From a virus (taxonomy: Duplodnaviria > Caudoviricetes), in IMG/VR virus record IMGVR_UViG_3300025326_000036, positions 1 through 56,696 of that record: 56,696 bases of DNA; one strand, written 5' to 3'. Position 1 is the stretch's first letter. The number at the start of each line of letters is the position of its first letter. The notes under the pieces are model-generated. The model worked only from the letters and a program-made list of their open reading frames with translations. It was not told where the DNA came from and made no database searches. Position numbers and translations under genes: made by a program. Of this stretch, positions 30,219 to 51,254 are shown piece after piece.

Positions 30219-30524
30219 CTACCCCCTCTGTTGACTAGTTATGTGGAAATCCCGACACACTGGGCACTTGTACGCGTACAGCGGCACTGCATTGTGAAAC
30301 TGGCTGATGTCAGAGCGGCTTTGCGTGTGGCCCATCGGGTTTTTCCACTGATGCAATGCTTGGTCTGACATCGCATGGTCACACCCGCCCGTCCACCGTC
30401 TGCCGCGTGTAGCGTATGCGACCATCGCCGCCCACCGGGTGCGCCCCTTGCCAACATGCCCTTGTGGGCCTTTGCAGGTCCACTTGCCTGCTCGGTTGGT
30501 TACTCGTACCCTGGCGGCGGTCAC
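30219..30524 (-). CDS. Hypothetical zinc-finger protein(s), possibly frameshifted
   Basis: GTGA overlap with ligase stop; C-terminal YAYKCPVCRDFHITS. Confidence 0.4.
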   Translation of the reverse strand: MTAARVRVTNRAGKWTCKGPQGHVGKGRTRWAAMVAYATRGRRWTGGCDHAMSDQALHQWKNPMGHTQSRSDISQFHNAVPLYAYKCPVCRDFHITSQQRG

Positions 30525-31105
30525 GACAGACCTACGAGTGATTTGGGTGATTCGTCTTTGTCCAGGGTCTTCTTGAACCCGATACCAGCCGCCGTGTGAT
30601 ACACGATCACTCCTTCCGGTTTCATAAAACCCGGGGCGGCCACACTGCCTTTGGACCTTAGATCGTTTACACACTCGTCCACCATCTCGGTGGTGAAGAT
30701 ACCCTTGTAAAGCGTCGGTACTACCCCGCAGCAAGCTGGTCGGTCTTCACCCCACCGGCTTACGTTGAACAGGCTGAATCGCTTGTCCAGCAATCCATAT
30801 TTGCGTTGGATACCCTGGCCCCACCACTCGCCGAAATGTTGACCGATTCCGAGATTCATCAGGTCTTCTGCGTTGGTCTGGCACCATTTGGCAAACCCGT
30901 AGTTGTCATCCTCGGGGGTGACCCACCGTGTACGGCTGCCGGCGAATAGACCGATGTTGTTGCTTTTGAAAATCAGTTGTTCAGGGTCGTAATCCCACTC
31001 GGAAAGGTCCGAGATAAACACCTGAGCGTTGGTACCGTCGATCTTTTCGGTAATGATTACTTCGCGTGAAAGCCTTGCCATCTTTGGAAATCCTACGAAT
31101 TGCAT
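30521..31105 (-). CDS. ATP-dependent RNA ligase, Rnl2-like nucleotidyltransferase domain
   Basis: FPKMARL, motif I EKIDGTN, GSRTRW, FGEW.G.GIQ, FSLFNV, motif IV EGVIV, motif V FKK. Confidence 0.8.
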   Translation of the reverse strand: MQFVGFPKMARLSREVIITEKIDGTNAQVFISDLSEWDYDPEQLIFKSNNIGLFAGSRTRWVTPEDDNYGFAKWCQTNAEDLMNLGIGQHFGEWWGQGIQRKYGLLDKRFSLFNVSRWGEDRPACCGVVPTLYKGIFTTEMVDECVNDLRSKGSVAAPGFMKPEGVIVYHTAAGIGFKKTLDKDESPKSLVGLS

Positions 31106-31137
31106 ATAACCCCCTTGACCCCTCCGGGCCTGTGTAC

Positions 31138-32958
31138 CTACCCCCATTCGCCTCTGGGTCGCTGCCCGATGCCGCTCCCCTGTGCCATCAGTGATGTGAC
31201 GCTCTGTACCTTGCGCTTCGCGTAGCGGTGAAACGGGAACACTCGGAACATGTCGTAGGCATAACTCCACATGTTGAGAATATCGCTATGAGCGAAGCCG
31301 AATTGGTCCATTTCAGCCTTCATCTTGTCGATATATTCCTTTGCTATGCCAGTCGAATAGTACAGCTTCGAATTATTCAACGGCCATTCCAACGCGCTCG
31401 ATATGCGGTTCTCCAGTTTGCGGCCAGCGGGCCGCAGCAGGAACAGGCTGCCGTTGATCACACTCAGCTTGCGGCCCTTGGCGGCCAGTGCATCGGCTAC
31501 GTGGACCTCCGTGGTGCTCAGACCGACCTTTTCCACGCCCATCTGCATGATCATACCGTGCTTCAGGTACATCCTGACGATGGTATCCACTGCCTGGCTG
31601 TGGGTCATCTGGTCGGCCACCACGTCCTCCAGGCACACGTCGCTGATACCCAGGTCATCGTCGGTTGCTTCGTCGCCTAAACGCCTGGCGAGGCTGTCGC
31701 TCGGCACGATGCTGACCACGCCAATGGACCACAGGTCACCCGGGCCGGTGATGTTCGTGTCCGTGCCACCCGCCTGGTCGATGACCATCATCTTAAACCG
31801 ATCAGCCCACTTGCCGACCCGCAGGAACTCAGGTGCGATGGGTTGCAGCATCCCTTTGTCGAGCGTGATGTCCTCGCGGGGCGACGGGTCGCAGAGCTGC
31901 TGGCTGTTTACGTGCTTGGTACGCTTGATGCGCTCCCAGGTGTCGGGATCGAGCAGTACAGGCTTGCCGTTGATCGTACCGTCATCGGTCGCCGGCACCA
32001 CGCGCAATTGCCACATCGGGCGCCCCGGGACTACGTTACCCTCGGCGTCCTTGGTTTCCTCAAATTTCATGTCACCGATGCGTTTTACAGGTCCTACCCA
32101 TGAGTAGTAGGTGCCTATGACCCTGCGTTTGTCGTTGTCGGACCCTGTGCCGAGGTTGTAGACGCACATCTGGAACTTGCTGAACACTTCCTCCAGCATT
32201 TTCGGGCTGCCGGCGATGTCCTCGGTCTCAATATCGTCAAAAATGATGCGTTCGTAGTGCCTTCCTGTCGGGCTTCCTTCCGTCAGACCGTATGCCTCCA
32301 CGGTGCTCTCACCACGGCTGGCGGCCTTACGTCGGAACACAATTCCGTCGTCCTCACTCCATTTCGGGGCATCCTGCGCCGGATTCGGCCACAGAACGTC
32401 CTCAAACGCCCATTTGAGCAGCACGGATTGTTCGCACAGGGTTTTGATGGCGCGTAGGAACTTCTTGGCGACCGGACGGGCGTAACCGAGGATGCAGGTA
32501 CATTCCTCGGGGTACTTGAGGTGGTACTGGAGCGTTTCGGCTATGGTAATTGTTAATGATTTGTAATGAAAACGTGCCCATACGTCCAGTGTGTCGGATT
32601 GAGGACCGTCCTGCAGCATCCGGCACTGTGTGACCACAAACGGATGGTTGGCCTTCTCGATCCCCATGACCCAAATCAGGATGTAGAAGATGTCGTTGGT
32701 GATGAGCATCCGTTGGGCGCCCTTGGCCCGGGCCTCACGGTCGTGGTCCTCCCCGCCGGCTATGTCACGGAAGATGTCCTCGTAGCGGTAGCGATACCAC
32801 GTCCTGTAAGGGAAATCAGGGTGCTTGGCGAGGGTGTGGATGTCGTCACCCTGCAGCTTGTGACTGAGGCCGAGGGTCTTACGCAACTCCAGCAATGCGG
32901 CGTCGTAGACGCTTTTGCAGGATGCGATCTGAGGGTGCGGTGTGAACTTGACAGCCAT
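31138..32958 (-). CDS. terL: Terminase large subunit
   Basis: ARFHYKS Walker-A variant, GRHYERIIFDDIE Walker B, VIGT coupling motif, MVIDQA nuclease Asp, HSDILN; upstream of portal. Confidence 0.85.
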   Translation of the reverse strand: MAVKFTPHPQIASCKSVYDAALLELRKTLGLSHKLQGDDIHTLAKHPDFPYRTWYRYRYEDIFRDIAGGEDHDREARAKGAQRMLITNDIFYILIWVMGIEKANHPFVVTQCRMLQDGPQSDTLDVWARFHYKSLTITIAETLQYHLKYPEECTCILGYARPVAKKFLRAIKTLCEQSVLLKWAFEDVLWPNPAQDAPKWSEDDGIVFRRKAASRGESTVEAYGLTEGSPTGRHYERIIFDDIETEDIAGSPKMLEEVFSKFQMCVYNLGTGSDNDKRRVIGTYYSWVGPVKRIGDMKFEETKDAEGNVVPGRPMWQLRVVPATDDGTINGKPVLLDPDTWERIKRTKHVNSQQLCDPSPREDITLDKGMLQPIAPEFLRVGKWADRFKMMVIDQAGGTDTNITGPGDLWSIGVVSIVPSDSLARRLGDEATDDDLGISDVCLEDVVADQMTHSQAVDTIVRMYLKHGMIMQMGVEKVGLSTTEVHVADALAAKGRKLSVINGSLFLLRPAGRKLENRISSALEWPLNNSKLYYSTGIAKEYIDKMKAEMDQFGFAHSDILNMWSYAYDMFRVFPFHRYAKRKVQSVTSLMAQGSGIGQRPRGEWG

Positions 32959-32961
32959 CGG

Positions 32962-34050
32962 TTACCCTTTGATGTTGATCAGCGGTTTGATGTGGTGAAC
33001 CACTCGGACCATCTCAGACTGCTGACGCATTACGTCGAAGATGTCCTTGTAAGCCAACGGCGATTCGTCCAGCGTATCATTGCCCACCTTGGCTGTCACA
33101 CCACACATGGTCGCCCTGAAATCATCCACGTTCAGTTTGCGTTGAGCCTCTTTACGACCCATCACCCTGCCTGCCCCATGTGAACTGGACCACAGCGCAT
33201 CGGGGTTGCCTTTGCCCTCAACGATGAAAGAGCCGTCCCGCATGTTGCCTGGGATAACACCCATCATGCCCACCTCGGCGTGGGTAGCCCCCTTACGATG
33301 AACCCACAGCCCGTCTTTCCACTCGGCGTGGTTGTGATTGCGGTTGATCAGTTGCTGCCAATCGGCGGAGCCGTCACAGTAGTGGGTCATTTCCCGCACG
33401 ACTCGTTGAATGATCTGGTGCCGGTTTTCCAGGGCGAATGCAAGGCAAAAAGCAAGATCGGTGATGTACGCCCGACCCTCGGACGATCTTGTATGGAATC
33501 CGAAATGACCCTCCCTTGCCCTACCGTCGCAGGATGCCATTTTCATGTAGTGGGTGGCGACGGCGTGCCCGATCCCTCTGGACCCCGAGTGAACGATGAT
33601 CCACACCCTGTCGGTCTCGTCATACCCAATTTCGATGAAATGGTTGCCGCTGCCGAGCGACCCGAGTTGGCGCAGACCGTTTTTACTGAAAATTGCAGCG
33701 GTGGCAGGTGTACACTCCGGTCCTTGCCATGCCGTATCCTTCTGGTTGTGGTTGAACCCGACCGGCACAGCACTGTAAACGCTGTTGAAAATTCCCACCG
33801 CATATTTAGCCACAGGTGCCTTGTTAAACGTGGTCGGAACAGCGCACATGCCGCAGCCGATGTCGTAGCCGACCCATGACGGGATGATCACACCGTCTGT
33901 GGCTATTACCGCGCCGATGGGCAGGGTGTAGCCTGTGTGGGCATCCGGCATGAGAGCGCCTTTGACGGCGAAATCCTGCTCCATTGCGCTGTTGAATTGG
34001 TCGATTGCGGATTGTTCGAGGATTTCTGCGAAAATGTGAGTCTCTTTCAT
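32962..34050 (-). CDS. rtcB: RtcB-family RNA ligase
   Basis: MPDAH.GY, GYDIGCG, LGSGNHFIE, HSGSRG, NHNHA, HRKGAT, SSHGAGR, DESPLAYK. Confidence 0.95.
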   Translation of the reverse strand: MKETHIFAEILEQSAIDQFNSAMEQDFAVKGALMPDAHTGYTLPIGAVIATDGVIIPSWVGYDIGCGMCAVPTTFNKAPVAKYAVGIFNSVYSAVPVGFNHNQKDTAWQGPECTPATAAIFSKNGLRQLGSLGSGNHFIEIGYDETDRVWIIVHSGSRGIGHAVATHYMKMASCDGRAREGHFGFHTRSSEGRAYITDLAFCLAFALENRHQIIQRVVREMTHYCDGSADWQQLINRNHNHAEWKDGLWVHRKGATHAEVGMMGVIPGNMRDGSFIVEGKGNPDALWSSSHGAGRVMGRKEAQRKLNVDDFRATMCGVTAKVGNDTLDESPLAYKDIFDVMRQQSEMVRVVHHIKPLINIKG

Positions 34051-34080
34051 AGGTAGTATCCTTTTGAAGAGTTATTTTTG

Positions 34081-34110
34081 TGGTCGGAGCGGTTGGATTT
34101 GAACCAACGG
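34081..34110 (-). pseudogene. Isolated 3' part of a second tRNA-Pro (T-arm, 3' acceptor strand, discriminator A, CCA)
   Basis: CC GTTGG TTCAAAT CCAAC CGCTCCG A CCA; complementary 5' strand CGGAGCG lies at 34593-34599. Confidence 0.85.
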
Positions 34111-34431
34111 TTAAACTAGATTATGCTCTTTTCTGTGGCAATTTGCACATAACACATCACATTTGCTAATTTCTGCTAAGATACGTTTTCTACCTAGAGT
34201 TAGGTTATTTGCAATAACAAAATCTTTTTGTGCTGCATCTCTGTGGTGAAAGTCTAAGCAAGCAGGATGTGACTCACCACAACGAACACAACTTAAGGTC
34301 TGTTTATACTCACGAAGCCATTGTTGTTGGTTTTGTCTTCGTTGTTTACGTTGCTCCACAATCTCTGCTCGTTTAGATTGGTATCGTTTTTGATCGTACT
34401 CAATTCTATACTCAGGTGTCCATTGACTCAT
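34111..34431 (-). CDS. HNH endonuclease (106 aa), AT-rich
   Basis: CVRCG...LDFHH...KCDVLCANCHR; AGGAGA RBS before MSQW; stop codon abuts the tRNA 3' fragment. Confidence 0.85.
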   Translation of the reverse strand: MSQWTPEYRIEYDQKRYQSKRAEIVEQRKQRRQNQQQWLREYKQTLSCVRCGESHPACLDFHHRDAAQKDFVIANNLTLGRKRILAEISKCDVLCANCHRKEHNLV

Positions 34432-34460
34432 TGATAGTCTCCTAAACATAAGATGATGCG

Positions 34461-34490
34461 TTTGTAACATATGTTTTGAACAACTGTCAA
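34461..34490 (-). promoter_or_regulatory. Internal promoter of tRNA-associated HNH gene
   Basis: TTGACA-18 bp-TACAAA with TGn extension. Confidence 0.5.
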
Positions 34491-34501
34491 CAAGTTCAAA
34501 T

Positions 34502-34578
34502 TGGTCTGCTATAAATGACTTGAACATTTAACCTCTCCGTCCCAAACGGAGTGCTCTACCAAATTGAGCTAATAGCAG
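34502..34578 (-). tRNA. tRNA-Pro (UGG), complete, 77 nt with encoded CCA
   Basis: CTGCTAT TA GCTC AATTTGGTA GAGC A CTCCG TT-TGG-GA CGGAG AGGTT AAATG TTCAAGT CATTT ATAGCAG A CCA; all four stems pair, C1-G72, A73, A15-U48. Confidence 0.92.
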
Positions 34579-34647
34579 TTTTATAAACTTCGCGCTCCGG
34601 TCTGGTGTGGTGCCAGATTTTCCCCCGCTAAAGGTAGGAGCGCAAAC

Positions 34648-34676
34648 ACATTAACGCTGTGTGGTGCGTATGTCAA
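34648..34676 (-). promoter_or_regulatory. Promoter for tRNA-HNH-rtcB-terL
   Basis: TTGACA-17 bp-TAATGT. Confidence 0.65.
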
Positions 34677-34924
34677 GCGGTATTGTCACACGGGGTCTCA
34701 TCCAGTATGTTCAACACTTCCTCGACAATGATGCGCCGGACGAATGGGCATACCGTCGTGATGGCTAGTGTGATGATCGACTCTATGGCATCGCGGTATG
34801 TCACTGTACAGCAACCTCGTCGCTGTCGTACACGAAATCGGCGGGATGGTAAACGTCATCGTGGACAACTAACCCATCGACACACTGTATCTCGCGGTTA
34901 CACCAGACGCACCAGTATCCCATG

Positions 34925-35197
34925 CTACCTCCCCGTGTCCAGTCGTTCAATCAGCCCGATCAGCAGGCGTTCCATGTGGGTGCTGCGGCACTGCTCCACG
35001 TCGATCCAGGGGCAGAAAAATATCTGGCTGAGGGTTATCTCGACCTCATGCACCCCGCAGCGTTCCTCGATGTCCGACACACTGGCCGCGAATGCTTTGA
35101 AGCACTCAAGCGACTTGATCTGGATGCCGTGGAAGCGGAGTTGAGTGATGGGAGCGGGTGGTCGCTTAGCCACGGCGCTGAGTGAGGTCCAACCCAT
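34925..35197 (-). CDS. Hypothetical protein
   Basis: ORF track; AAGGTGG upstream. Confidence 0.45.
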   Translation of the reverse strand: MGWTSLSAVAKRPPAPITQLRFHGIQIKSLECFKAFAASVSDIEERCGVHEVEITLSQIFFCPWIDVEQCRSTHMERLLIGLIERLDTGR

Positions 35198-35543: not shown

Positions 35544-35729
35544 TCAAGCGTAAATCACCGGGTCCAGGCGCGACTCATCGGGGATCAGGTCCATACCGGC
35601 CAACCCCCGCCGTATCTTGCCAATAGCCTCCCGCTCGATCTGCTGGATGCGGGTGTGAGAGACGCCCATGACGTGGGTCATGCCGCCAGTGGCCTTGGCG
35701 GTCGTGTAGGTGGGTTTACGTGGGGGCAT
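35544..35729 (-). CDS. Small sigma70 region-4-like HTH protein
   Basis: MGVSHTRIQQIEREAIGKIR. Confidence 0.65.
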   Translation of the reverse strand: MPPRKPTYTTAKATGGMTHVMGVSHTRIQQIEREAIGKIRRGLAGMDLIPDESRLDPVIYA

Positions 35730-36474
35730 TGGTGGCTCCCTTCAACGCAGTGTATACGGACGTTAGGCTGATACCAAGCAAAATGGCGGTATCTTTCCTC
35801 GACACACCAGCATCCAACATCGCTCTGATCGCGTCGAGTTGCACCCTTCTAGGTTTACGTGGCTTATTCGGTCGCATCCAACCATCTGGTCGAACGATTT
35901 TTGGGCGACCCATGACTTTTGATCCTGTGGGTTTACCCATCTTCGGTGTAGCAATGCATTCATCGAGTGCAATCAACCCGGCTGGATCAAACAAATCGTT
36001 CAATTTAGCAAATTCACCATGTAGTCGGATAGCAGCGTCGTTGTACACTTTGGCTGCTTCAACTACATCAGTAAAATAACCCAATCTATGCTCTACCCCA
36101 CCAGCATATATACGTGCCTCCCATTTTTTGTCTCTTTTACGCCACCATACACCTTTGTAACCTGACGATGTTGGCTTCTGATTGGGTCGTCTGTTCTGGC
36201 TATTACCTGAATAAGTACTCAACCGCAGGTTACAACGTCTGTTGTCCAGTCCGTTTCCGTTAATGTGGTCAACCGGACCATCAGGAAAACCCATTATCTC
36301 TCTGTGCATAGCCACATGCTTCTTATCAGCCATTTTTCCAAGCGACACCCGGCGGGCGTATGCTGATCTACTCTCCCGATGGTCGTAGACGTACCATCTG
36401 AACTGTGACAACCGCTCATAATCCTCATCGTCAACCAGAGCGGTGTACCCTCTACCTAGTGGTATCTCTCTCAT
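35716..36474 (-). CDS. HNH-AP2 endonuclease with C-terminal resolvase-like HTH
   Basis: ALVDDEDY, MHREIM, VDHINGNGLDNRRCNLR, SGYKGV.W...W.ARI...LGYF...AA..YN.AA..LHGEFA; then GRP...LLGISLTSVY. Confidence 0.85.
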   Translation of the reverse strand: MREIPLGRGYTALVDDEDYERLSQFRWYVYDHRESRSAYARRVSLGKMADKKHVAMHREIMGFPDGPVDHINGNGLDNRRCNLRLSTYSGNSQNRRPNQKPTSSGYKGVWWRKRDKKWEARIYAGGVEHRLGYFTDVVEAAKVYNDAAIRLHGEFAKLNDLFDPAGLIALDECIATPKMGKPTGSKVMGRPKIVRPDGWMRPNKPRKPRRVQLDAIRAMLDAGVSRKDTAILLGISLTSVYTALKGATNAPT

Positions 36475-37034
36475 TTCACACCAGCCTTCTGCTGGCGCAG
36501 TATCCGGTACACCGACGCCGATCCGATACCCAACTGGCGTGCTGCGGCCAGCCGTGTAAATCCCATGTCGAGTAGAGCCATCACCTGTTCGGTTTGGTTC
36601 CTGGCGCTCGGGTGGCGGCCTTTGTACCGCTTCTCGGATTGTGCCCGAATGATACCGTCACGCTGCCGCTCCAGCATCATCTCCCGCTCAAATTGGGCGA
36701 TGGCACCGAGTACCGTCAGCATCACCTTACCTGTGGGGGTGCTGGTGTCGATATTCACATTGAGAATGCGGAAGGTCACACCTCGCTTGGTCAAGTCCTC
36801 TACGATGGTCAGTAGGTGCTGTGTGCTGCGAGCTATGCGGTCAATCTTGCAGATGACCAGTACATCGCCCTTGGTGAGCCTGCCCATGAGTGTGGTCAGT
36901 TCGGGTCGGTCATCCTTGGCCCCGCTGACCTTCTCCTTGTAGATGTGTTGACATCCTGCCGCTGTGAGCTGTTCGATCTGTGCGTCAAGGTGCTGTGCTG
37001 CGGTTGAGACCCTTCCATACCCGTAGACTGTCAT
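36471..37034 (-). CDS. Serine recombinase (resolvase/invertase family)
   Basis: YGRVST catalytic Ser, EKVSG...RPEL, DRIARS, AQFER..MLERQ..G, C-terminal HTH. Confidence 0.92.
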   Translation of the reverse strand: MTVYGYGRVSTAAQHLDAQIEQLTAAGCQHIYKEKVSGAKDDRPELTTLMGRLTKGDVLVICKIDRIARSTQHLLTIVEDLTKRGVTFRILNVNIDTSTPTGKVMLTVLGAIAQFEREMMLERQRDGIIRAQSEKRYKGRHPSARNQTEQVMALLDMGFTRLAAARQLGIGSASVYRILRQQKAGVK

Positions 37035-49892: not shown

Positions 49893-50001
49893 CTCAGGGT
49901 CTCCCTTGCTATCAGACATTTGGAGCAACTGCACAGTGGGCTGTTGCTCATGGGTAGGTATCGGTTATGGGCGCGTATTTGCTTGAGTGCTTGGGTGGTG
50001 G

Positions 50002-50811
50002 TCATCGCGCGTCTCCTATAAATTCGGTCGGCCTGAAAAGTGACTGGATCATCTTTTCTTCCTCGATGGTTCTACCTATTGATCGGTTGTTTTTAATATT
50101 GTTGCATCGAAAATGAGTACACTGTGTATTTGACATCTCATGTGTACCACCTTTTGACAAGGGTATTATGTGGTCGAGAGTCGGGAATAACGGATGTGGA
50201 TGTGTTGCTGTTCTATCGACAGGCAGACCACATAATTGACAAACCCAATTATCCCGTTCAAATACGACCCCGCGATCCACATGCTCAACAAACGCGTTCT
50301 TGCGTCTAGCACGACGTGTCTGGTGCCATTTGTTTACTTTATCAGGGTTAGTCTGTCTGTATATTCTATGACGGTGCTTATCGTATTCCACATTTTCACT
50401 TAGCCACTTCTTCATCCGTTCAGCTATCATTGGTTTATTTGAAATACGGTAGACAACACCCCACTTCTTCATGCGCTCTGCTGTCTCAGTTTTATGAGTC
50501 TCACGGTATATTTTACATAGTGTGTTATGATGTTCTTTGTTATTGATATATCTGTCTTTGTAATACTCTTTCTTATTCGGGTAATTGGATTTAGCTTTTG
50601 CTAAAATAGCGGCTCTGTTTTTGTCATACCGAATCTTGTTCTTTATGAGTATTTCGCCCCTGTGTATTTTATTGTATTCTTTAGCTTTTGCACACTGCTC
50701 TTTTCTATGCTTCTCGTTATACCGTTTAGTATTGGCGTTACCCTTTTCTCTACATTTTTGGCAACGAGACATGCCCTCGATAGCGTCAGCACTGCAACTC
50801 AAGCATTTCAT
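50002..50811 (-). CDS. HNH endonuclease with Lys/Arg/Tyr-rich helical repeats, AT-rich
   Basis: Start MKCLSC (ATGA overlap); VFERDNWVCQLCG...TLDHIIPLSKGGTH..SN.QC.H..CN..K. Confidence 0.85.
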   Translation of the reverse strand: MKCLSCSADAIEGMSRCQKCREKGNANTKRYNEKHRKEQCAKAKEYNKIHRGEILIKNKIRYDKNRAAILAKAKSNYPNKKEYYKDRYINNKEHHNTLCKIYRETHKTETAERMKKWGVVYRISNKPMIAERMKKWLSENVEYDKHRHRIYRQTNPDKVNKWHQTRRARRKNAFVEHVDRGVVFERDNWVCQLCGLPVDRTATHPHPLFPTLDHIIPLSKGGTHEMSNTQCTHFRCNNIKNNRSIGRTIEEEKMIQSLFRPTEFIGDAR

Positions 50812-51254
50812 ATATCCAGTTCCTGTACGGACGTAATGAATTTTGCCCGACCGCCGAGCGACACGATCAAATTTAAAAAGTTCTGCTGCGCTACCTCGCG
50901 AGGTGTGGCGGTGAAATGCCAACCAGGTCGCTTGACCTCGTAGGCGAGGAATTGACCGATATTGCTGATGCCGATCAAGTCGCTGCTCTTACATACTGAA
51001 TTGACGGACTTACTCTCGTTCATTAAACCATATCTAATGAAGTTTCCCCGTTCATCCTGGTATGCGCCGGAATTGTTGCGAAACAGTCGAGCACCACGCC
51101 GAGCGGCCTCCAGGCGTATGGCATTTTGCACCGATGCCTCCGATCCCTCGGCTGTCGGTCCTAGCTGCGGCGTGGCCGCCACACCCATCATGGCACGTAG
51201 CTCCGCGACCGCTGCCGGCGAGATACCCCACCTGTTGGCCCATGTGGTCAGCAT
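50808..51254 (-). CDS. VRR-NUC domain nuclease
   Basis: SE..VQ..IR, LFRNNSG, SSDLIG, AYEVKRP, Q..FL..I...GG.A.F. Confidence 0.85.
   Translation of the reverse strand: MLTTWANRWGISPAAVAELRAMMGVAATPQLGPTAEGSEASVQNAIRLEAARRGARLFRNNSGAYQDERGNFIRYGLMNESKSVNSVCKSSDLIGISNIGQFLAYEVKRPGWHFTATPREVAQQNFLNLIVSLGGRAKFITSVQELDI

What the first reader, a model, noticed from the sequence alone, without database searches (positions are those of the whole stretch)
34081..34599. tRNA inside a tRNA: complete tRNA-Pro plus HNH gene nested between the two acceptor halves of another tRNA-Pro, next to RtcB
Seen (minus strand): CGGAGCG (34599-34593), a 14-nt spacer, a complete AT-rich tRNA-Pro(UGG) (34578-34502), a promoter and HNH ORF (34431-34111), then immediately CC-GTTGG-TTCAAAT-CCAAC-CGCTCCG-A-CCA (34110-34081). 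The outer pieces form a perfect 7-bp acceptor stem plus T-arm with Pro identity elements (C1-G72, A73) but lack their own D and anticodon arms. The locus therefore has one D/anticodon domain and two alternative acceptor/T-arm domains, with breakpoints at tRNA positions 7/8 and about 48/49. Inference A: an intron-less homing cassette in which the HNH cuts a resident tRNA-Pro gene and brings a recoded, cleavage-immune replacement tRNA. Inference B, more speculative: RNA-level processing gives a large CCA-ended tRNA-like envelope or minihelix, or a re-ligated alternative tRNA, using the RtcB encoded 30 nt downstream.
Basis: partly seen in the sequence, partly recalled or inferred. Interest (0 to 1): 0.85.

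Follow-up and report, generated by a model that had tools for sequence, protein, structure and literature searches.

The report
Foreign tRNA-plus-nuclease cassette inside phage tRNA gene
A soil phage's own proline tRNA gene, just before its RNA-repair ligase gene, has had its middle replaced by a foreign piece of DNA carrying a complete substitute proline tRNA and a small selfish DNA-cutting enzyme gene, leaving the two dead ends of the old gene as a footprint.

Summary
On the minus strand lie CGGAGCG (34599-34593), a 14-nt AT spacer, a complete tRNA-Pro(UGG) (34578-34502), a 106-aa HNH endonuclease gene (34431-34111), then a 30-nt T-arm/acceptor/CCA piece (34110-34081), 30 nt before rtcB. The 482-bp middle is 37% GC in a 56% GC phage. 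Contigs from three other metagenome runs bridge both edges, so it is not a misassembly.

The HNH belongs to a family that lives in phage tRNA arrays, usually ending at the 5' end of the next tRNA (also in FelixO1 and KIL4). One other family member (L035) shows the same layout: a complete tRNA-Pro(UGG), the HNH, then the 3' part of a second tRNA-Pro copy.

Best reading: this is the footprint of a homing-endonuclease-linked replacement of a resident tRNA-Pro gene by a foreign tRNA-Pro plus HNH cassette. It works like T4 SegB, which spreads together with flanking tRNA genes.

Not shown: cleavage by this HNH, an empty allele, or a donor.

Nothing supports the RNA-level idea (an RtcB-religated envelope or alternative tRNA). 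The outer pieces lack D and anticodon arms, and rtcB adjacency is explained by small tRNA arrays before rtcB in relatives. Interest is moderate: a new variant of a known kind.

The parts
34593..34599 (-). 5' acceptor-strand remnant (CGGAGCG) of the resident tRNA-Pro gene; the last GC-rich bases before the AT-rich cassette
   Evidence: pair I10, perfectly complementary to 34085-34091. Of 55 tRNAs with this acceptor pair in viral contigs, 51 are tRNA-Pro. Positional chance is about 0.004-0.012.
34111..34592 (-). Whole foreign cassette of 482 bp: spacer, cargo tRNA, intergenic region and HNH gene
   Evidence: 37.1% GC against 55.1% and 55.7% in the flanks and 56.4% for the genome (profile). Both edges are bridged by contigs of runs X11, X14 and X15.
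34579..34592 (-). 14-nt spacer, mostly AT; left edge of the cassette
   Evidence: It does not fit tRNA positions 8 onward.
34502..34578 (-). Complete cargo tRNA-Pro(UGG) with encoded CCA, C1-G72, A73 and G37
   Evidence: ARAGORN; Rfam RF00005 63.8 bits; cloverleaf MFE with z -2.96. Its nearest relatives are tRNA-Pro genes of large AT-rich myoviruses: Kashira 89.7% over 58 nt, and 210 phage records.
34432..34501 (-). Intergenic region with a promoter-like TTGACA (34490-34485), an extended -10-like TGnTACAAA, and the Shine-Dalgarno AGGAG (34443-34439)
   Evidence: Read. The consensus scan does not call this promoter, so it is only promoter-like.
34111..34431 (-). 106-aa HNH (His-Me finger) endonuclease gene, a free-standing homing-endonuclease candidate; the last His codon is 34125-34123 and the stop is 34113-34111
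   Evidence: PHROG HNH families at E 1e-26. Invariant C48, C51, H62, H63, N97, C95, C98, H99 and H103 in a 13-sequence alignment. 98 viral relatives, of which the 80 best were kept.
34081..34110 (-). 3' remnant of the resident tRNA-Pro gene: CC, T-arm (GTTGG/TTCAAAT/CCAAC), acceptor 3' strand CGCTCCG, discriminator A, CCA
   Evidence: The 22-nt end is identical to a cellular tRNA-Pro(UGG). 27 of 29 nt match an intact tRNA-Pro in L183. GC is 56.7%, like the resident genome.
32962..34050 (-). RtcB RNA ligase gene, 30 nt downstream of the remnant; a neighbour, not part of the cassette
   Evidence: Pfam PF01139, E 5.7e-87. Some relatives carry tRNA genes directly upstream.

Best explanation
The locus is the DNA footprint of a gene replacement. 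It is not a functional 'tRNA inside a tRNA'.

The phage once had its own GC-type tRNA-Pro gene directly before rtcB. A 482-bp AT-rich cassette from an unrelated phage that carries tRNA arrays has replaced roughly positions 8-47 of that gene. The cassette holds a short spacer, a complete tRNA-Pro(UGG), a ribosome-binding site and a small HNH endonuclease gene. The outer CGGAGCG and the 30-nt T-arm/acceptor/CCA piece are the dead ends of the old gene.

Likely path (inferred, not shown):
1. During a mixed infection the HNH, a free-standing homing endonuclease of a family that lives in tRNA arrays, nicked or cut the resident tRNA gene.
2. Resection removed the middle of the gene.
3. Repair copied the donor's tRNA-plus-HNH segment.
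4. Donor and recipient share no flanking homology, so both joints formed inside the tRNA gene by illegitimate or microhomology joining rather than by clean homologous exchange.

The phage loses nothing, because the cassette supplies a working tRNA-Pro(UGG). The HNH gains a new genome. RtcB is a bystander: tRNA genes stand before rtcB in this phage group, and that put a tRNA target there.
For: Shown:
- The anatomy is as described.
- The cassette is 37.1% GC against 55-56% in the flanks, while the 3' remnant is 56.7%.
- The junctions are real. X11 contigs cover 33980-34301 and 34486-34962, an X14 contig covers 34498-34787, and an X15 contig covers 34060-34594, all without differences.
- The HNH is intact, with every invariant family residue (PHROG).
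- The family sits in tRNA arrays on the tRNA strand. Of 62 distinct loci (from 80), 30 hold tRNAs, 16 have a tRNA within 250 nt upstream, and 10 have a tRNA starting 0-26 nt after the last His codon. Eight of 18 further loci do the same. So do FelixO1 ORF47 and the KIL4 HNH in cultured phages.
- In the window the remnant starts 12 nt after the last His codon, inside that 0-26-nt range.
- Second case, L035: a complete tRNA-Pro(UGG), the HNH 10 nt later, then about 44 nt of the 3' part of another tRNA-Pro copy. Its acceptor strand pairs 7 of 7 with the 5' strand of the upstream tRNA, whereas that tRNA's own 3' strand pairs 6 plus one G-U.
- Distribution is sporadic: 0 of 23 RtcB-relative loci hold this HNH.
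- tRNAs do stand before rtcB in relatives. L091 has tRNA-Pro(UGG) plus tRNA-Asp on the same strand, and L005/L100 has tRNA-Pro(UGG).
- The outer acceptor pair is a tRNA-Pro type (51 of 55).

Precedent: T4 SegB cuts tRNA genes and spreads with flanking tRNA genes (PMC2330249, abstract and sections 16 and 19). SegB also amplifies a tRNA-Tyr plus segB unit (PMC13096335, abstract and sections 7, 9 and 10).
Against: - No empty allele was found. The 28-mer has 0 matches in viral contigs. The 22-mer matches 1 of 185,579 species genomes, and that is a cellular tRNA. No contig joins across the cassette in the 4 runs laid.
- No donor was found. The best HNH relative is 52% identical, and only the tRNA part of the cassette finds DNA matches in phages.
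- Cleavage specificity of this HNH is unknown. That it made the break is an inference.
- Most family members sit between intact tRNAs. Only the window and L035 show a remnant, so breaking a tRNA gene is the exception in this family.
- The 5' heptamer could be chance at about the 1% level.
- The joints coincide with the boundary between the acceptor/T-arm half and the D/anticodon half of tRNA. Random resection does not predict that, and I cannot explain it.
Confidence: 0.72

Rival explanations
1. Only generic illegitimate recombination is involved. A tRNA-plus-HNH segment was captured near or in a resident tRNA gene by random recombination and deletion. The HNH played no part in making the break, and the 5' heptamer may be coincidence.
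For: The heptamer alone is weak evidence (7 copies on the strand; 14 perfect 7-8-nt inverted pairs in 581 nt). Phage tRNA arrays are littered with tRNA debris, for example L008-L011. Most family loci show no broken tRNA.
Against: Both edges of the foreign DNA fall inside one about-76-nt gene. The heptamer sits exactly at the composition switch. The same layout recurs with a 38%-identical family member in L035, again in tRNA-Pro(UGG).
Confidence: 0.15
2. The 3' piece is an attP-like core that matches a host tRNA-Pro 3' end and is used for integration. The rest is incidental.
For: tRNA 3' ends are classic integration cores (general knowledge). A 187-aa serine recombinase gene lies 1.9 kb away (36471-37034, Pfam Resolvase). 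Other contigs in the same metagenomes carry a tRNA-Pro(CGG)-like 3' end that matches 34078-34109 with 2 differences.
Against: The recombinase is of resolvase/invertase size and is not adjacent. The exact 22-mer occurs in only 1 of 185,579 species genomes. attP does not predict the matching 5' strand at the other edge of an AT-rich island. Relatives carry bona fide phage tRNA genes at this position.
Confidence: 0.05
3. RNA-level function. The transcript is processed so that the outer pieces form a CCA-ended minihelix or envelope, or RtcB religates pieces into an alternative tRNA.
For: The outer pieces are exactly the acceptor/T-arm half of a tRNA and end in CCA. The MFE fold of 34078-34602 closes with the outer helix. 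rtcB lies 30 nt downstream.
Against: The fold result follows from the chosen ends. A 7-bp helix across 500 nt that includes a translated ORF is weak. The outer pieces have no D or anticodon arm, so no tRNA can result. No RNA family matched the locus apart from the inner tRNA. Adjacency to rtcB is shared with ordinary tRNA genes in relatives.
Confidence: 0.03
4. Metagenome assembly chimera that joins two organisms through tRNA-like words.
For: The record is a metagenome-assembled viral contig with an abrupt composition change.
Against: Independent contigs in runs X11, X14 and X15 bridge both junctions without differences. The sequence returns to the same phage on both sides within 482 bp.
Confidence: 0.02

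Closest known systems
T4/T6 SegB, a free-standing GIY-YIG homing endonuclease in the tRNA gene cluster (PMC2330249; PMC13096335)
   Same: It is a free-standing nuclease gene inside a phage tRNA array, on the tRNA strand, whose ORF ends at the next tRNA. It cuts within tRNA genes, recognising the T-loop motif GGTTCRANTCC. It is inherited together with flanking tRNA genes, and tRNA plus nuclease behave as one unit.
   Different: The catalytic family differs (GIY-YIG against HNH). SegB exchange takes place between homologous T-even regions and leaves clean alleles. Here the recipient is unrelated to the donor, and the result is a nested footprint with both ends of the old tRNA gene left behind. 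Cleavage by the window's HNH is untested.
Phage T5 F-TflI/II/IV HNH endonucleases in the tRNA gene region (known to me only through their mention in PMC2330249 section 19 and the listing)
   Same: They are HNH-type free-standing endonuclease ORFs located in a phage tRNA gene cluster.
   Different: I did not compare sequences, so membership of the same HNH subfamily is untested. I saw no report of tRNA remnants flanking them.
FelixO1 ORF47 (NP_944871) and Pseudomonas phage KIL4 gp166 (YP_009616724), annotated HNH endonucleases
   Same: They belong to the same protein family (tblastn 41-44% identity over about 86% of the query). They lie between tRNA genes, with the stop codon 1 nt before, or 10 nt inside, the next tRNA.
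   Different: They are flanked by intact tRNAs of different specificity, with no remnant. None of the three literature searches that covered homing endonucleases turned up a functional study of them.
tRNA 3'-end duplication by elements that integrate into tRNA genes (attL/attR of prophages and islands)
   Same: A mobile element interrupts a tRNA gene yet leaves a complete tRNA, because it carries a substitute for the displaced part. A leftover tRNA fragment marks the far end.
   Different: There is no integrase in or next to the cassette. The substitute is a whole, very different tRNA, not an identical 3' end. A 5' fragment is left as well.
Split and permuted tRNA genes of archaea and algae (recalled, not searched)
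   Same: tRNA pieces are separated in the DNA.
   Different: Those pieces together make a complete cloverleaf and are joined as RNA. Here the outer pieces lack the D and anticodon arms and cannot make a tRNA.

Membership tests
HNH / His-Me finger endonuclease | A beta-beta-alpha-metal core with a catalytic His (HH), Asn and a final His, commonly framed by two CxxC zinc pairs | tested here: met
   C48, C51, H62, H63, N97, C95, C98, H99 and H103 are invariant in 13 family members. PHROG HNH families hit at E 1e-26 and 1e-25.
HNH / His-Me finger endonuclease | A match to curated Pfam HNH models or to a solved HNH structure by sequence | tested here: not met
   Pfam gave only a sub-threshold unrelated hit at E<=0.01. 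There was no PDB sequence match at E<=1. This reflects divergence and does not contradict the motif. No fold was predicted.
Free-standing homing endonuclease gene (HEG) | The nuclease ORF is not inside an intron or intein, and its composition is foreign to the genome | tested here: met
   No intron RNA family is present at the locus. The cassette is 37.1% GC against a 56.4% genome.
Free-standing homing endonuclease gene (HEG) | Sporadic presence or absence among related genomes at the same locus | tested here: met
   0 of 23 loci of RtcB relatives hold a homologue (best E 0.048, elsewhere in the locus). These relatives are distant, with RtcB 32-77% identical.
Free-standing homing endonuclease gene (HEG) | An HEG-less ('empty') allele of the same target exists | tested here: not met
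   No uninterrupted copy of this tRNA was found before an rtcB. No contig skips the cassette in the 4 runs laid. The searches need exact words, and the collections hold no near relative, so the result is weak.
Free-standing homing endonuclease gene (HEG) | The enzyme cleaves the HEG-less allele near the insertion point and spares its own allele | not testable with these tools
   This needs purified protein and DNA substrates.
SegB-like (GIY-YIG) tRNA-targeting homing endonucleases | A GIY-YIG catalytic domain | tested here: not met
   The protein is an HNH. It may work like SegB, but it is not a member.
Split or permuted tRNA gene | The separated pieces together encode all four arms of one tRNA | tested here: not met
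   The outer pieces give only the acceptor stem and T-arm. The only D and anticodon arms belong to the complete inner tRNA.
attP core at a tRNA 3' end | An adjacent integrase, and identity to the host tRNA 3' end | tested here: inconclusive
   No integrase is adjacent; a 187-aa resolvase-type recombinase lies 1.9 kb away. An exact 22-mer was found in 1 of 185,579 species genomes. The host is unknown.

The most novel reading that the evidence does not exclude
A subset of this tRNA-array HNH family may be 'self-complementing' homing elements. They would break into a tRNA gene (here tRNA-Pro(UGG), in two unrelated phages) and carry a replacement tRNA, or a replacement tRNA 3' half, as cargo. Invasion then never costs the recipient its tRNA. 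The element can therefore jump between phages that share nothing but a tRNA gene, which would make tRNA genes universal landing pads for gene flow between unrelated phages.
Probability: 0.35. Interest if true: 0.65.

Novelty: new variant of a known kind. Interest (0 to 1): 0.5.

Why it matters
Homing endonucleases in phage tRNA clusters are known to drag neighbouring tRNA genes between closely related phages, and tRNA genes are now seen as anti-defence cargo. This locus shows the same logic working between unrelated phages. The only thing donor and recipient needed in common was a tRNA gene, and the invader paid for the damage with its own tRNA.

If this is general, three things would follow:
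- It would explain the debris of tRNA fragments seen in phage tRNA arrays.
- It would explain how tRNA genes of AT-rich phages turn up in GC-rich ones.
- It would offer a family of small (about 100 aa) nucleases that may recognise tRNA genes.

The locus also cautions annotators. tRNA fragments next to HNH genes are footprints, not split genes.

Tried and rejected
Empty allele. I searched for it with exact-word scans of viral contigs (28-mer, 0 hits) and of one genome per species (22-mer, 1 hit, a cellular tRNA). RtcB relatives in viral contigs (6 loci) and metagenome contigs (17 loci) gave no copy either. Laying contigs of 4 runs showed no joint. A part without cover in X14 and X15 says nothing.

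Donor. megablast and blastn against phages matched only the tRNA part. The closest HNH relatives are 52% identical.

RNA. No listed holder of the stretch is on record as RNA, so expression could not be looked at.

L035 relatives. Searching for them with a 24-nt word of its tRNA found only its own contig.

Flanking repeats. The cassette has no flanking direct repeat of 7 nt or more. A shared 6-mer (AGTTTA) near both edges is probably chance.

Same-isoacceptor flanks. In L234 and L021 the two tRNAs of the same anticodon on either side of the HNH are strongly divergent, so they are not recent tandem copies. They are suggestive of 'cargo plus resident' but prove nothing.

Promoters. The consensus scan called neither the cassette promoter nor the TTGACA at 34676-34671 upstream of the outer 5' piece.

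Not done:
- No control set was run for the tRNA enrichment around the HNH family. The counts stand alone.
- No structure was predicted and no complex job was sent.
- Supplementary files of the two SegB papers were not seen. They may hold junction sequences relevant to truncated tRNAs.

Rejected readings: assembly chimera, split tRNA, and attP core (see rivals).
Full report
WHAT IS THERE

The window is a 56.7-kb viral record, about 94% complete. It has a P22-like portal and coat and an NrS-1-like primase-polymerase, and it is 56.4% GC.

- CGGAGCG at 34599-34593.
- A 14-nt spacer at 34592-34579.
- A complete tRNA-Pro(UGG) at 34578-34502. It is the only tRNA in the window, scores 63.8 bits with Rfam, and folds as a cloverleaf with z -2.96.
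- A 70-nt intergenic stretch with AGGAG 7 nt before the ATG.
- A 106-aa ORF at 34431-34111.
- CC, a 5-bp T-stem with loop TTCAAAT, CGCTCCG, A and CCA at 34110-34081.
- After 30 nt, rtcB at 34050-32962 (Pfam E 5.7e-87).

The ORF is an HNH endonuclease. PHROG HNH families hit at E 1e-26. All residues that are invariant in a 13-member alignment are present: two CxxC pairs, HH, N, and CH...H. Pfam and PDB sequence searches miss it.

ARE THE OUTER PIECES A REAL tRNA REMNANT?

The 3' piece is. Its last 22 nt equal a cellular tRNA-Pro(UGG). An intact tRNA-Pro in viral locus L183 shares the acceptor pair and T-stem, matching 27 of 29 nt. Of 55 tRNAs in viral contigs that use the CGGAGCG/CGCTCCG pair, 51 are tRNA-Pro.

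The 5' heptamer alone would be unremarkable. It has 7 copies on this strand, and the 581-nt region holds 14 perfect 7-8-nt inverted pairs. However, it lies exactly where the composition switches from GC-rich to AT-rich, 14 nt before the inner tRNA. The chance of that is about 0.004 to 0.012.

THE MIDDLE IS FOREIGN AND THE JOINTS ARE REAL

The 482 bp between the two pieces are 37.1% GC. The flanks are 55.1% and 55.7%, and the 3' remnant itself is 56.7%.

The stretch is held by 16 listed soil or sediment runs. I laid 4 of them. Contigs of X11 (33980-34301 and 34486-34962), X14 (34498-34787) and X15 (34060-34594) bridge the two edges without a single difference. X1 holds the whole stretch but may be the source. 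No contig skips the cassette. The runs may belong to one campaign.

WHAT KIND OF HNH THIS IS

Of 209 candidate stretches in viral contigs, 98 encode a relative, and the 80 best were kept. After collapsing identical copies there are 62 distinct loci:
- 30 hold at least one tRNA within 3 kb.
- 16 have a same-strand tRNA ending within 250 nt upstream.
- 10 have a same-strand tRNA that starts 0-26 nt after the last His codon, so the ORF's stop lies at or inside the next tRNA.
- 5 loci without the C..CH...H motif were not measured.

Eight of 18 further loci, found with the L035 protein, show the same downstream abutment; three of them are near-identical. Cultured phages agree. FelixO1 ORF47 ends 1 nt before tRNA-Thr, and the KIL4 HNH overlaps tRNA-Gly by 10 nt. 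I ran no control set for this enrichment.

In the window the remnant begins 12 nt after the last His codon. That is where a whole tRNA would begin in the relatives.

The inner tRNA resembles tRNA-Pro genes in the arrays of large AT-rich myoviruses: Kashira at 89.7% over 58 nt, and 210 records in all.

A SECOND CASE

In L035, an unrelated 35-kb viral contig whose HNH is 38% identical, the layout is as follows:
- A complete tRNA-Pro(UGG) at 2890-2960.
- 10 nt later, the HNH gene.
- About 44 nt that align with the part of that tRNA from the anticodon loop to the discriminator.

The distal acceptor strand pairs 7 of 7 with the 5' strand of the upstream tRNA. The proximal strand pairs 6 plus one G-U. 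This looks like the same event with a shorter replaced tract: the resident 5' half was kept, a substitute 3' half and the HNH were brought in, and the old 3' half was left behind.

Only the window and L035 show such a remnant among the family loci examined.

Related hints:
- L234 and L021 have the HNH between two strongly divergent tRNAs of the same anticodon.
- L008-L011 carry a 10-nt tRNA-Pro 3' end just after a complete tRNA-Pro, next to another HNH gene.

THE rtcB SIDE

RtcB relatives are 32-77% identical, and some carry tRNA genes directly before rtcB:
- L091 has a partial tRNA, tRNA-Pro(UGG) and tRNA-Asp on the same strand.
- L005/L100 has tRNA-Pro(UGG) on the opposite strand.
- L006/L007 have three tRNAs about 1.1 kb upstream.
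- The rest have none.

None of the 23 loci holds this HNH. A resident tRNA-Pro before rtcB is therefore plausible as the older state. The adjacency of the nested locus to rtcB needs no RNA-level explanation.

MECHANISM

Shown: a foreign tRNA-plus-HNH segment lies between the two ends of a GC-type tRNA-Pro gene.

Inferred: the HNH, like other free-standing homing endonucleases, broke the resident gene during a mixed infection, and repair copied the donor segment. With no flanking homology, the joints formed inside the gene. In L035, where the two tRNAs were more alike, one joint resolved within the tRNA.

The closest worked example is T4/T6 SegB. It recognises the T-loop motif GGTTCRANTCC, cuts at the 3' end of tRNA genes, and is inherited with its neighbouring tRNA genes (PMC2330249; abstract and sections 16 and 19 read). 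It also drives amplification of a tRNA-Tyr plus segB unit (PMC13096335; abstract and sections 7, 9 and 10 read).

As a lead only: the outer T-arm matches that 11-nt motif exactly, while the cargo tRNA differs at its first and last positions. This would suit a 'spared' copy, but the motif belongs to a different enzyme family.

One feature remains unexplained. The joints coincide with the border between the acceptor/T-arm half and the D/anticodon half of the tRNA.

RIVALS

- Generic illegitimate recombination without HNH action: 0.15.
- attP core: 0.05. No integrase is adjacent, the exact match is to 1 genome of 185,579, and attP does not predict the 5' strand.
- RNA-level minihelix or RtcB religation: 0.03. 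There are no D or anticodon arms, and the fold result follows from the chosen ends.
- Misassembly: 0.02.

NOVELTY

Homing endonucleases in phage tRNA clusters, and their co-transfer of tRNA genes, are known. I found no paper describing tRNA remnants nested around a tRNA-plus-HNH cassette, nor a study of this HNH family (searches; one search concerned RtcB). Those searches cover open-access papers and preprints only.

Noticed in passing
window 50002-50922 (-) and 35716-36474 (-): There are two further HNH endonuclease genes. One is a 306-aa PF01844 protein in a second low-GC island (42.6% GC for 50001-51000). The other is a 252-aa HNH_3 + AP2 + HTH protein directly after a 187-aa resolvase-type serine recombinase (36471-37034). 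The phage therefore carries at least three putative homing endonucleases.
   Followed up: partly
window 30521-31270 (-) with 32962-34050 (-): An RNA ligase (PF09414, E 1.7e-8) and RtcB flank a 606-aa ORF that has no Pfam hit (31138-32958). Two RNA-joining enzymes lie within 3.5 kb, next to the tRNA locus. This suggests a tRNA-repair and tRNA-supply module against host anticodon nucleases.
   Followed up: no
L091 1-309; L005 3889-3966 (= L100 2889-2966): tRNA-Pro(UGG) recurs directly next to rtcB in two other phage lineages. In one it is on the same strand together with tRNA-Asp; in the other it is on the opposite strand. All the sequences differ from both tRNA-Pro copies in the window.
   Followed up: partly
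L008-L011, about 1400-2900: The array next to the closest HNH relative (52% identity) is full of tRNA debris. A 10-nt tRNA-Pro 3' end lies 8 nt after a complete tRNA-Pro(UGG). A tRNA 5' fragment lies before it. Several orphan T-arms are present, and a second HNH gene of another type sits between two tRNA-Pro genes.
   Followed up: partly
L234 1208-1277 and 1842-1915: An HNH family member is flanked by two strongly divergent tRNAs with anticodon CUA. ARAGORN labels them Pyl, and they are likely amber suppressors. This hints at stop-codon reassignment in that phage.
   Followed up: no
Family loci, e.g. L014 3295, L018 3232, L012 1065, L247 1219: In many family members the HNH ORF has no stop codon of its own before the next tRNA and terminates inside it. 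[quoted passage not shown]
   Followed up: partly
window 34078-34109: Other contigs in runs X1, X14 and X15 match this 32-nt piece with 2 differences and continue as a tRNA-Pro(CGG)-like gene of another organism (depth up to 50 in X14). This could be a cellular tRNA from the same soils, and possibly a clue to the host.
   Followed up: no
window 34648-34676 (-): TTGACA, 17 nt, then TAATGT lies about 50 nt upstream of the outer 5' piece. It may be the old promoter of the resident tRNA gene, but the consensus scan does not call it.
   Followed up: partly
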